A DNA stretch of 64,000 nt from Escherichia coli (GTDB taxonomy: Bacteria; Pseudomonadota; Gammaproteobacteria; Enterobacterales; Enterobacteriaceae), in NCBI RefSeq assembly GCF_003334355.1, contig NZ_QOWP01000001.1, one strand, 5' to 3'. How positions within the stretch are numbered: the first letter of the stretch is position 1; each line of letters begins with the position of its first letter. Shown here one piece after another: positions 33,001 to 36,000 of the stretch. A program made the position numbers.

Positions 33001-36000
33001 TGAACCGTTAAAAAACCAGGAAATATCCACAGGTAATATCAATATTAATTGCCCATTAAAAGATATTTGCAATGAAATCAGGAGGTTAAACGTAATTTTT
33101 AGTTGTGGGACTGGAGATATCGTTGATCTATCCTCTCTGGACTTACGTAATGTCGATTTAGATTATTATGATTTCACAGATAAACATATGGCTAATACTA
33201 TTTTAAATCCTTTTAAATTGAATTCAACAAATTTTACTAATGCCAACATGTTTCAGGTTAATTTTGTTAGTTCAACACAAAACGCCACAATCTCCTGGGA
33301 TTATTTACTAAAAATAACACCTGTTTTAATAAGCATTAGCGATATGTATTCTGAAGAAAAAATCAAGTTTGTCGAAAGTTGTTTGAATGAGCCTGGAGAC
33401 ATTACCGAAGAACAATTAAAAATTATGAGATTTGCAATTATAAAATCTATACCAAGAGCAACTCTTACAGATAAATTAGAAAATGAATTAACAAAAGAAA
33501 TATATAAAAGCTCATCGAAAATCAACAATTGCTTGAACAGAATTAAATTACCAGAGATGATAGATTTCTCATCAGAAAAAATACATGATTATATCGACAT
33601 AATCATTGAAGATTATGAAAATATCAAAGAAAATGCTTATCTGGTCATTCCCCAAATTAATTATACTATGGATTTAAACATAGAAGACTCTAGCTCAGAA
33701 GAGTTACTTTCAGATAATGGTATCGAGAAAGACGATAATTCTTCTGACAATTACTTTGAGGTCGAAAAAATATAACACACATGAAGCATATAACTCAGAG
33801 GAACTATATTTTACCAGAGAGGACTATACGTATGATTACGACCTTTTAAATGCAATATAGACTTAATAACTTCTTACAAAGTCTATTATTAATACCGTAA
33901 ATATTCATGCTTCTTACCCTGTGCACCAAAAGCAAAAACTTATCGATGCGGGTTTGAAACTGATGGCAACCGCAAAAATGCCTGATGCGCTACGCTTATC
34001 AGGCCTACGCCATCTCTGCAATATATTGAATTTGCGTGCTTTTGTAGGCAGGATAAGGCGTTCACGCCGCATCCGGCATGAATAAAGCGCACTCAACAAT
34101 CTGAAACCCGCCGGAACGGTTTATTACGTACATCAGGTGAAACTGACCGATAAGCCGCTTTCTTTTGGGTATAGCGTCGTGGACAGTCATTCATCTTTCT
34201 GCCCCTCCCAAAGCAAAAACCCGCCGGTTTACGCTGGCGGGTTTTCGTTAAATCAGGTGAAACTGACCGATAAGCCGCTTTCTTTTGGGTATAGTGTCGT
34301 GGACAGTCATTCATCTTTCTGCCCCTCCAAAAGCAAAAACCCGCCGAAGCGGGTTTTTACGTAAATCAGGTGAAACTGACCGATAAGCCGGGTTCTGTCG
34401 TGGACAGTCATTCATCTAGGCCAGCAATCGCTCACTGGCTCAAGCAGCCTACCCGGGTTCAGTACGGGCCGTACCTTATGAACCCCTATTTGGCCTTGCT
34501 CCGGGTGGAGTTTACCGTGCCACGGACTGTTACCAGCCGCGCGGTGCGCTCTTACCGCACCCTTTCACCCTTACCTGATCCCGCTTGCGCGGGCCATCGG
34601 CGGTTTGCTCTCTGTTGCACTGGTCGTGGGTTTCCCCCCCAGGCGTTACCTGGCACCCTGCCCTATGGAGCCCGGACTTTCCTCCCCTCCGCCCGTCTCC
34701 CCCGAAGAGGACGACGACGAAGCGGCGACTGTCTGGTCAGCTTCGGCGCGCAGTATAGAGGGTTTGCGCGCCCTTGTCACCCCGCGTTGCGCATTCCAAT
34801 CGCCAGTGTCGCGGCGATATTACGTGAAGCACGGCAGATATTGTCATAAGCCCCGCGGAATGCTTCGTCCAACGTACCTATGCTGGTCAATACGCTGAAG
34901 ACCGCATCAATGCCATGCTGATGTACAACGCCAACATCATCGGTCAGGCTACCCGCAATGCCAATCACCGGTTTATGGTACTTCTTCGCCACGTTTGCGA
35001 CACCAATCGGTACCTTCCCGTGAATACTCTGGCTGTCAATACGCCCTTCACCGGTGATCACCAGCGTACAATCGTGAATATGTTCCTCCAGATTCAGCGC
35101 CGTAGTGACGATTTCAATACCACTTTTCAGTTCCGCACCAAGAAACGCCATTAGCGCCGCGCCCATACCACCCGCAGCTCCTGCACCGGGGACATCTTTC
35201 ACATCAACATGCAGCGCTTTTTTAATGACCTCGGCATAGTGAGAGAGGTTATTGTCCAGCTCAACAATCATCGCTTCACTGGCTCCCTTTTGTGGGCCAA
35301 AGATGCGCGATGCGCCGTTATCGCCCACCAGCGGATTGGTGACATCACAAGCGACGCGAATGACGCAATCTTTTAAGCGCGGATCGAGGCCGGAAATATC
35401 AATATCATTCAGAGTATTAAGACTACCGCCGCCAAAACCAATTTCATTGCCGTTGGCGTCGCATAATTTCGCCCCCAGCGCCTGTACCATGCCTGCGCCG
35501 CCATCATTTGTAGCGCTGCCGCCAATGCCGATAATAATGTTTGTCGCACCGCTCTCCAGCGCCTGCAGGATTAACTCGCCTGTGCCGCGTGAAGTGGTCA
35601 CGAGTGGATCGCGTTTTTCCGCAGGTACCAGCTCCAGCCCACTGGCCGCCGCCATTTCAATAAACGCGGTTTTGCCATCGCCGGAGATCCCCCAACTGGC
35701 ATTCACTTTCTCGCCCAGCGGCCCTGTAACCCAGGCGTGACGTTCAGCCCCCTGGGTGGCTGCAATCATCGCTTCCACCGTTCCTTCGCCACCGTCGGCA
35801 ACCGGAACAGAAACGTACTGTGCATCAGGAAAAATTTCCCGAAATCCTTTTTCTATCGCCTGCGCAACCTCGCTGGCAGATAAACTTTCTTTATAAGAGT
35901 CTGGGGCGATTACGATTTTCATACCTATGCCTGTTACCACATGACGCCGGAGGGCGTTTCTCTTATTCGGCCTGGATTCCAGGCCCGGATTGCAATACGC

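What the first reader, a model, noticed from the sequence alone, without database searches (positions are those of the whole stretch)
34100..34744. rnpB 3' end duplicated as tandem repeats
The last ~50 nt of RNase P RNA plus its terminator hairpin are repeated about 2.5 further times downstream (period ~114-120 bp). Track ORFs in this stretch are artefacts. This is a known curiosity that could affect 3' processing or termination efficiency.
Basis: partly seen in the sequence, partly recalled or inferred. Interest (0 to 1): 0.2.

Follow-up and report, generated by a model that had tools for sequence, protein, structure and literature searches.

The report
Repeated terminator modules after rnpB
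Downstream of the E. coli RNase P RNA gene, its last ~50 bases plus its terminator are copied twice in tandem; this is a non-coding, copy-number-variable repeat long known from E. coli K-12, though it is also present across many enterobacterial genera.

Summary
rnpB lies on the minus strand at 34368-34744. Read on that strand, M1 RNA nt ~327-377 plus the 3' trailer, terminator T1 and a short spacer recur twice. Copy starts are 101 and 120 nt apart. T1 and T2 are strong hairpins; T3 has decayed.

The copies are pseudo-3'-ends. Each carries an 18-nt insert where rnpB has AGAACC, which removes part of the P4 3' strand.

This is the same locus as in K-12, which has three 113-bp copies. The repeat-specific part is in 3777 of 5426 complete E. 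coli genomes, at 1-8 copies, and is never annotated. About 30% of genomes have none, so it is dispensable.

The same module, insert included, follows rnpB in Salmonella, Klebsiella (up to 10 copies), Citrobacter, Enterobacter, Phytobacter, Franconibacter and Yokenella. Trailer and terminator evolve in concert with each genome's own rnpB end.

The SD-preceded small ORF is not coding. Half of 63 units have lost the start codon or frame, or carry an early stop, and synonymous changes are at the random fraction.

Best reading: a tandem array made by unequal recombination that supplies back-up, probably bidirectional, terminators. One thing is unexplained: the insert is conserved across genera while the spacer is randomised.

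The parts
34368..34744 (-). rnpB, RNase P RNA (M1 RNA, 377 nt)
   Evidence: Rfam RF00010, 318.6 bits, model positions 1-367, E 1.7e-103. Annotated as rnpB in the identical E. coli record.
34752..34780 (-). rnpB promoter-like site (-35 GTGACA, 17-nt spacer, -10 TATACT)
   Evidence: Consensus scan, 10 of 12 matches, placed just upstream of the RNA 5' end at 34744.
34368..34418 (-). Source segment: M1 RNA nt ~327-377. It consists of AGAUGAAUGACUGUCCACGAC ('X'), then AGAACC, then CGGCUUAUCGGUCAGUUUCACCU ('Y').
   Evidence: Sequence; in-register listing of copies.
34333..34360 (-). Terminator T1: A-tract, CCCGC-UUCG-GCGGG hairpin, U-tract
   Evidence: MFE -19.4 kcal/mol, z -4.3, 0 of 200 shuffles as stable.
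34196..34315 (-). Repeat copy 1 (120 nt): X (34296-34315), 18-nt insert ACUAUACCCAAAAGAAAG (34278-34295), Y, trailer, terminator T2 (34214-34247), spacer
   Evidence: T2 MFE -19.6 kcal/mol, 0 of 200 shuffles as stable.
34100..34195 (-). Repeat copy 2 (distal): X (34176-34195), insert GCUAUACCCAAAAGAAAG (34158-34175), Y, and a decayed terminator T3 (~34103-34124)
   Evidence: T3 folds at only -4.7 kcal/mol, and 178 of 200 shuffles fold at least as well.
33915..33965 (-). Decayed distal remnant of terminator tail, spacer and the start of X, beyond the REP pair. It marks the old end of the array.
   Evidence: the repeat finder family D3; alignment A1. In strain 536, T1 is joined directly to this remnant.
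34093..34314 (-). 73-aa ORF spanning both copies (MNDCPRHYTQKKAAYRSVSP...), preceded by GGAGGGG; judged non-coding
   Evidence: ORF list. Coding tests across 63 units fail. Homologues are only unnamed 'hypothetical' calls with no Pfam domain.

Best explanation
This is a minisatellite-like tandem array of pseudo-3'-ends of rnpB. An ancestral duplication copied the last ~50 nt of M1 RNA with its 3' trailer, intrinsic terminator and a short spacer. The duplicate acquired a 12-nt insertion and a CC->AG change that remove part of the P4 3' strand, so it cannot serve as a working RNase P 3' end.

Unequal crossing-over, slippage and gene conversion between the ~100-130-bp units, and with rnpB's own end, then expand, contract and homogenise the array (inferred from the pattern). 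This explains the 0-8 copies in E. coli and up to 10 in Klebsiella.

Functionally, each intact unit adds another strong hairpin flanked by an A-tract and a U-tract. The array would act as fail-safe, probably bidirectional, terminators. They would stop read-through from the heavily transcribed rnpB and transcription converging from the yhaC side. The function is inferred, not shown.

The array is dispensable and its ORFs are not genes.
For: Structure:
- rnpB, the tandem copies and their register are established.
- In all 20 genomes where rnpB itself was captured, exactly one copy carries AGAACC and it is the real rnpB. All downstream copies carry the insert, at lengths of 18 nt (53 units), 17 nt (7) and 19 nt (1).

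Terminators: T1 and T2 fold at -19.4 and -19.6 kcal/mol with no shuffle as stable; T3 is decayed.

Copy-number polymorphism:
- The repeat-specific 69-mer occurs in 3777 of 5426 complete E. coli genomes, at 1-8 places, median 2, all chromosomal.
- K-12 has three copies of 113 bp. Strain 536 has none, with T1 fused to the distal remnant.

Concerted evolution:
- Trailer plus terminator of rnpB versus the first repeat in the same genome has median identity 0.91, against 0.72 between genera.
- The genus-specific Y variant is shared by rnpB and the first repeat in 17 of 19 genomes.

Not coding:
- 32 of 63 units have lost the ATG, carry an early stop or are frameshifted.
- 11 synonymous and 40 non-synonymous changes give 22% synonymous, equal to the random expectation.
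- Wherever rnpB has CGGCUUAACGG, the ORF gets a TAA stop.

No sigma-70-like promoter lies inside the repeats on either strand. No Rfam family other than RNase P reaches threshold.
Against: - No transcription or termination data were examined, so the terminator role rests on sequence and folding only.
- About 30% of E. coli genomes lack the array. Any benefit must therefore be small or conditional.
- Back-up termination alone does not explain the insert. Its last 11 nt are 83.5% identical across genera, while the spacer in the same unit is at the shuffled level (45% against 42%).
- It also does not explain why no unit with an unrelated insert was found in metagenomes.
Confidence: 0.7

Rival explanations
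1. The unit is a functional RNA module rather than only a terminator. Read-through transcripts would be cut at the copied 3'-processing sites into RNAs that carry a hairpin (X paired with Y), an exposed A-rich insert and a terminator hairpin. Such RNAs could act as a small RNA, or as a decoy for a factor that binds the M1 3' end, such as Hfq, RNase E or C5 protein. This would resemble RttR, which is annotated over the repeats behind tyrV in the tyrT-tyrV locus.
For: - The insert is conserved across at least 8 genera (83.5% over the 11 nt not used for the search) while the spacer is randomised.
- A metagenome scan for units with a non-canonical insert found only a Klebsiella deletion derivative.
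- Most units fold with an X:Y stem and the insert in the loop.
- The insert contains AAA-AGA-AAG, an (ARN)3-type Hfq distal-face motif (motif assignment from own knowledge).
- The analogous tyrT repeat region is annotated with a processed sRNA, rttR.
Against: - There is no promoter in the units, and T1 is a strong terminator, so little transcript should reach them.
- X is invariant, so no covariation can support the hairpin. The 4-bp inner stem is broken by uncompensated changes.
- Insert length varies between 17 and 19 nt.
- 30% of E. coli genomes lack the array.
- No Rfam sRNA family matches.
- Insert-to-M1 duplex energy is only marginally better than shuffles (2% of shuffles as good).
Confidence: 0.2
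2. Each unit encodes a small basic peptide (MNDCPRRYTQKKAAYRSVSP...). Translation would start at a Shine-Dalgarno-like GGAGGGG, and K-12 has AUGA stop/start overlaps between successive units. The 'protamine-like' tpr ORF in the tyrT repeats would be the parallel.
For: - In this window and in K-12, GGAGGGG lies upstream of the ATG (7 nt between them). The K-12 ORFs are 38 codons with AUGA overlaps.
- The N-terminal 19 residues recur in ORF calls from Escherichia, Salmonella and Klebsiella.
Against: - 32 of 63 units are disrupted: the ATG is lost in 6, an early stop occurs in 13, and 13 more are frameshifted or diverged.
- The synonymous fraction is 22%, equal to random.
- The SD is absent in other Escherichia species, Klebsiella and Enterobacter.
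- Real 17-nt insert variants frameshift 4 of 10 Klebsiella units, and the same frameshift appears in an independent assembly.
- Sequence conservation follows rnpB, not the peptide.
- There is no Pfam domain or curated name, and no entry in the one E. coli Ribo-seq supplement that could be searched.
Confidence: 0.03
3. The copies are relics (attL/attR-type duplications) left by integrative elements that targeted the 3' end of rnpB, as happens at tRNA and tmRNA genes.
For: Partial duplications of the 3' end of a stable-RNA gene are the usual signature of such integrations (own knowledge).
Against: - Copies are strictly head-to-tail with 93-135-nt periods, and no mobile DNA or integrase lies between them.
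- The copied end lacks the P4 strand, so it could never have restored a working gene.
- The unit pattern has 0 matches in 2.9 million viral contigs and 0 places on E. coli plasmids.
Confidence: 0.03

Closest known systems
113-bp repeats 3' of the E. coli K-12 M1 RNA gene (Reed et al. 1982, Cell 30:627; recalled, not retrievable here)
   Same: Same locus and same unit: rnpB, T1, then copies of the rnpB 3' end with the 18-nt insert and a terminator. The flanking genes yhaC and garK are the same. K-12 was read directly.
   Different: K-12 has three extra copies of 113 bp, all with the UUCG-loop terminator. This window has two. The proximal one is 120 bp with a longer-loop terminator (CCCGCCAGCGUAAACCGGCGGG) of the type seen in other Escherichia species.
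tyrT-tyrV locus 178-bp repeats with rttR and tpr (E. coli K-12)
   Same: The 3' end of a stable-RNA gene (19 nt of tRNA-Tyr) is repeated 3.1 times in tandem downstream of the gene, with a small basic ORF inside the repeats.
   Different: The unit is unrelated in sequence. The tyrT repeats are annotated with a processed sRNA (rttR) and the CDS tpr, whereas nothing is annotated in the rnpB repeats. The rnpB units each carry an intrinsic terminator, which I did not see in the tyrT unit.
Tandem fail-safe terminators of stable-RNA operons (e.g. rrnB T1-T2; own knowledge)
   Same: Several strong intrinsic terminators in series follow a very highly transcribed non-coding RNA gene.
   Different: rrnB T1 and T2 are not copies of each other or of the gene's 3' end, and their number does not vary between strains.
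Bacterial VNTR / minisatellite loci
   Same: Head-to-tail units of ~100-130 bp with strain-specific copy number (0-8 in E. coli) that is stable within clonal lineages. In the sampled rows, all seven O157 records have 1 copy and the K-12 and laboratory-derivative strains have 3.
   Different: The unit is anchored to, and homogenised with, an essential RNA gene. It is conserved in position across genera.

Membership tests
Bacterial RNase P RNA class A (RF00010) | Full-length match to the covariance model above the gathering score of 100 bits | tested here: met
   34368-34744 (-) scores 318.6 bits over model positions 1-367. The repeat copies do not qualify. The only sub-threshold RF00010 hit in 33880-34400 is the cut-off end of rnpB itself (19.1 bits), and no copy is hit.
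Bacterial RNase P RNA class A (RF00010), applied to the repeat copies | Intact P4 3' strand and J2/4 (ACAGAACCCGGCUUA) | tested here: not met
   All 63 downstream copies in 23 loci have the ~18-nt insert in place of AGAACC. They are pseudo-3'-ends.
Intrinsic (Rho-independent) terminator | Stable G+C-rich hairpin followed by a U-tract | tested here: met
   T1 folds at -19.4 and T2 at -19.6 kcal/mol, with 0 of 200 shuffles as stable. Both are followed by UUUUUGCUUU and preceded by an A-tract. T3 fails (-4.7 kcal/mol). The simple scan missed them, probably because the U-tract pairs with the A-tract.
Intrinsic (Rho-independent) terminator | Demonstrated termination in vivo or in vitro | not testable with these tools
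   rnpB T1 is used as a characterised terminator (PMC3643576). T2 and later copies were not assayed in anything I could read.
Tandem repeat with variable copy number (VNTR) | Head-to-tail copies whose number differs between strains | tested here: met
   TRF finds period 120. E. coli genomes that have the repeat carry 1-8 copies, and 1649 genomes have none. K-12 has 3, strain 536 has 0 and K. quasipneumoniae has 10.
Protein-coding small ORF | Start codon, reading frame and an excess of synonymous change conserved among homologues | tested here: not met
   Only 31 of 63 units are intact. Changes are 11 synonymous and 40 non-synonymous, against a random expectation of 22% synonymous. Codon positions 1, 2 and 3 carry 17, 14 and 20 changes.
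att-site duplication by an integrative element | Mobile DNA or an integrase between the duplicated gene ends | tested here: not met
   Copies are contiguous. There are no viral-contig matches.
Processed sRNA from a stable-RNA operon (RttR-like) | A discrete stable RNA derived from the repeat region | not testable with these tools
   No expression data were available. No Rfam family matches.

The most novel reading that the evidence does not exclude
The rnpB-linked module (X, a conserved A-rich insert, Y and a terminator) is a functional RNA element maintained since the common ancestor of Escherichia, Salmonella, Klebsiella, Enterobacter, Citrobacter and relatives. It could be a processed small RNA, or a decoy that tunes RNase P RNA maturation or decay. 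Dose would then be set by a strain-variable copy number.
Probability: 0.15. Interest if true: 0.5.

Novelty: already known. Interest (0 to 1): 0.22.

Why it matters
For annotation, the ORFs between rnpB and yhaC should not be called as genes. The array is also a place where short-read assemblies break, and many database 'proteins' from it are partial calls at contig ends.

For biology, it is a clear small example of concerted evolution between an essential RNA gene's end and a neighbouring minisatellite. It also gives a natural series of strains with 0 to 10 terminator copies behind a very strong promoter.

The only open point of wider interest is why the 18-nt insert stays conserved across genera.

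Tried and rejected
- Literature. The original descriptions (Reed et al. 1982; Kim, Sim and Lee 1999) are not in the held library. Six full-text searches found no paper that discusses the repeats. A seventh, for VNTR use of the locus, found nothing, and a K. pneumoniae MLVA paper does not use it.
- Known RNA families. A permissive Rfam search of 33880-34400 gave only sub-threshold chance or REP-related hits.
- Promoters. The scan found none inside the units. By eye, the TTGCTN-N16-18-ATGAAT and TATACC candidates are poor and their spacing is not conserved in Salmonella.
- Inner 4-bp stem (CGCU/AGCG) around the insert. It is broken by uncompensated changes in E. coli, Salmonella, K. pneumoniae, Citrobacter and L015.
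- Insert pairing with M1 RNA. RNAduplex gives -24.9 kcal/mol against a shuffle mean of -19.2, with 2% of shuffles as good. This is not convincing.
- Translation evidence. The peptide and the K-12 start coordinates are absent from the one searchable Ribo-seq supplement. The other paper has no held supplement. Multi-mapping reads may have been discarded in such studies.
- Phage or att origin. There are no viral-contig matches.

Full report
**What is there**

The window is E. coli: 33900-34800 is 100% identical to strain 214-4. Rfam places RNase P RNA (RF00010, 318.6 bits, full length) at 34368-34744 on the minus strand. A sigma-70-like promoter (GTGACA, 17-nt spacer, TATACT) sits at 34780-34752. 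The neighbours are garK (minus strand, 34777-36003) and a yhaC-like ORF (plus strand, 32672-33775).

TRF reports a tandem array at 34124-34390 with period 120, 2.3 copies and 89% matches. The repeat finder gives two 98-nt copies at 97% identity and a three-member family that includes the end of rnpB.

Read on the rnpB strand, the order is as follows.
- M1 RNA nt ~327-377. This consists of X = (A)GAUGAAUGACUGUCCACGAC, then AGAACC, then Y = CGGCUUAUCGGUCAGUUUCACCU.
- A trailer, terminator T1 (34333-34360) and a spacer.
- Copy 1, 34315 down to 34196, which includes terminator T2 (34214-34247).
- Copy 2, 34195 down to ~34100, whose terminator T3 has decayed.

X starts are 101 and 120 nt apart. T1 and T2 fold at -19.4 and -19.6 kcal/mol, with none of 200 shuffles as stable. 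T3 folds at only -4.7 kcal/mol. Beyond a pair of REP elements, a further decayed remnant of terminator tail, spacer and X start lies at ~33915-33965.

The gene is on the minus strand. There are two further copies rather than 2.5. The copies are not exact.

**The copies are pseudo-3'-ends**

In both copies the AGAACC of rnpB is replaced by 18 nt, (A/G)CUAUACCCAAAAGAAAG. This can be read as a 12-nt insertion plus CC->AG. It removes the first two pairs of the P4 3' strand (P4 assignment from my own knowledge of M1 RNA structure). The copies could not complete a working ribozyme.

**Same thing as in K-12**

MG1655 has rnpB followed by three 113-bp copies of the same unit, between yhaC and garK, and nothing is annotated in them. 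This fits my recollection of the original M1 RNA gene paper (Reed et al. 1982), which described a 113-bp sequence repeated about 3.5 times. I could not retrieve that paper, so 'known' rests on memory plus the K-12 sequence read here.

The window's proximal unit is 120 bp because it carries a longer-loop terminator and a slightly different trailer.

**Population variation**

A 69-nt repeat-specific query (34278-34346) matches 3777 of 5426 complete E. coli genomes.
- Copy number is 1-8 places per genome, median 2, and all places are chromosomal.
- No annotated feature lies under the match in any of the 60 sampled rows.
- In that evenly spaced sample of 60 genomes the counts were 26 with one copy, 12 with two, 20 with three and 2 with four.
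- All seven O157 records in the sample have one copy, and the K-12 and laboratory-derivative strains have three.

The other 1649 genomes (30%) have no match. In strain 536, T1's tail runs straight into the distal remnant, as expected from a deletion between the repeated terminator tails. The array is therefore not essential.

**Beyond E. coli**

Translations of the repeats pulled out unnamed ORF calls from Salmonella, Klebsiella, Shigella and other Escherichia species. Many are partial calls at contig ends.

Fetching loci showed the same module directly after rnpB in K. quasipneumoniae (10 copies of 116 bp) and in Salmonella (two copies of 108 bp in a clean assembly).

A scan of one genome per species with CTGTCCACGACRCTATAC found it in these groups, at 1-6 copies:
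- Escherichia, in several species
- Citrobacter
- Klebsiella, in both the pneumoniae and oxytoca groups
- Enterobacter spp.
- Phytobacter
- Franconibacter ('Enterobacter') pulveris
- Yokenella
- unnamed Enterobacteriaceae

In all 20 genomes where rnpB was captured, exactly one copy has AGAACC and it is the real gene. All others have the insert, at lengths of 18 nt (53 units), 17 nt (7) and 19 nt (1).

**Concerted evolution**

Trailer, terminator and spacer differ between genera but match rnpB's own trailer and T1 within each genome. The median identity is 0.91 within a genome against 0.72 between genera. The genus-specific variant of Y (for example CGGCUUAACGG or CGGCUUACCGG) is shared by rnpB and the first repeat in 17 of 19 genomes.

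In K. michiganensis the proximal unit carries rnpB's terminator type and the distal units carry another type.

This is what unequal crossing-over or gene conversion within the long Y-trailer-terminator homology would produce. X is only ~20 nt, which may explain why AGAACC never spreads into the array. That last step is inference.

**Is the small ORF real?**

In this window and in K-12, GGAGGGG lies upstream of an ATG, with 7 nt between them. The K-12 ORFs overlap by AUGA. This looks suggestive, but it fails the tests run on 63 units.
- 6 units lack the ATG.
- 13 have a stop before codon 19. This includes every unit in genomes whose rnpB has CGGCUUAACGG, which reads GCU UAA in the ORF frame.
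- 13 more are frameshifted or diverged. The 17-nt insert variant is present in 4 of 10 K. quasipneumoniae units, and its frameshifted translation also appears in a protein from an independent assembly.
- Substitutions fall 17, 14 and 20 on codon positions 1, 2 and 3. Eleven are synonymous and 40 are not, which is 22% synonymous and equal to the random expectation.

The SD is missing in other Escherichia species, Klebsiella and Enterobacter.

**What remains unexplained**

The insert is conserved. Over the 11 nt that were not part of my search pattern, cross-genus identity is 83.5%, against a shuffled expectation of 60%. The spacer in the same units is at 45%, against 42% shuffled.

To remove ascertainment bias I scanned metagenomes for X-(10-30 nt)-Y units whose third insert base is not T. 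I found only a Klebsiella deletion derivative (GCCCAAAAGAACG), genuine rnpB genes of other phyla, and chance hits.

All such units therefore share one origin, and the insert seems constrained.

I found no structure that explains it. The predicted X:Y hairpin puts the insert in a loop. X never varies, so covariation cannot be tested, and the small inner stem is broken by uncompensated changes. No promoter, Rfam family or convincing pairing with M1 RNA turned up.

The A-rich AAAAGAAAG resembles an Hfq (ARN)n or RNase E-accessible stretch. That is speculation.

**Comparison with known cases**

The closest analogue that I could test is the tyrT-tyrV locus of K-12. It has a 178-bp unit repeated 3.1 times, each copy carrying the last 19 nt of tRNA-Tyr. 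The annotation there lists the processed sRNA rttR and the small basic ORF tpr.

The rnpB array differs in having an intrinsic terminator in every unit and no annotated product.

An origin by integrative elements is unlikely. The copies are contiguous, the copied end is non-functional, and the unit is absent from 2.9 million viral contigs.

**Verdict**

This is a real, well-defined and already known feature: back-up terminator modules derived from the rnpB 3' end, evolving as a variable-number tandem repeat. The ORFs are artefacts.

The breadth across Enterobacteriaceae, the concerted evolution with rnpB and the conserved insert are modest additions. They justify a low-to-moderate score rather than a higher one.

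Noticed in passing
window 33975-34085: A pair of inverted REP elements (a BIME) sits between repeat copy 2 and the decayed distal remnant. 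It gives sub-threshold Rfam hits to the REP-derived families naRNA4 and ES036. It appears to have been inserted inside the old distal end of the array.
   Followed up: partly
L003 2222-3398 (Klebsiella quasipneumoniae CP029443.1): The largest array seen: 10.2 copies of 116 bp after rnpB. Four units carry a 17-nt insert (one A fewer). The array ends right after the Y segment, with no terminator.
   Followed up: partly
window 34214-34247 vs 34333-34360; L028 2440-2700: Two terminator hairpin types coexist in the arrays of different genera: a short UUCG tetraloop and a long loop such as CCCGUCAGUGUAAGCUGGCGGG. E. coli here has T1 short and T2 long. Salmonella has T1 long and T2/T3 short. This looks like an old polymorphism shuffled by recombination.
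   Followed up: no
L016 (contig labelled Chryseobacterium sp. 18061) and L022 (289-bp contig labelled Microvirga antarctica): Both carry enterobacterial-type rnpB ends or units (five copies in L016, Salmonella-type units in L022). These records are probably contaminated or mislabelled.
   Followed up: no
window 34095-34744 (-): In the MFE fold of a hypothetical read-through transcript, the 5' strand of helix P1 pairs with the most distal Y copy instead of the authentic 3' end. This shows only that the copies could compete for pairing if they were transcribed.
   Followed up: no
window 32672-33775 (+) and 33770-33809: The yhaC-like ORF (367 aa) converging on the array is visibly A+T-rich. An 18-nt unit is repeated 2.2 times at its stop codon. 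Strain 536 lacks this gene altogether.
   Followed up: no
L012 13103-13420 (Citrobacter amalonaticus): Here the single repeat unit is separated from rnpB's T1 by ~210 nt that includes REP-like sequence. The first bases of its X are changed (GCAGAATG).
   Followed up: no
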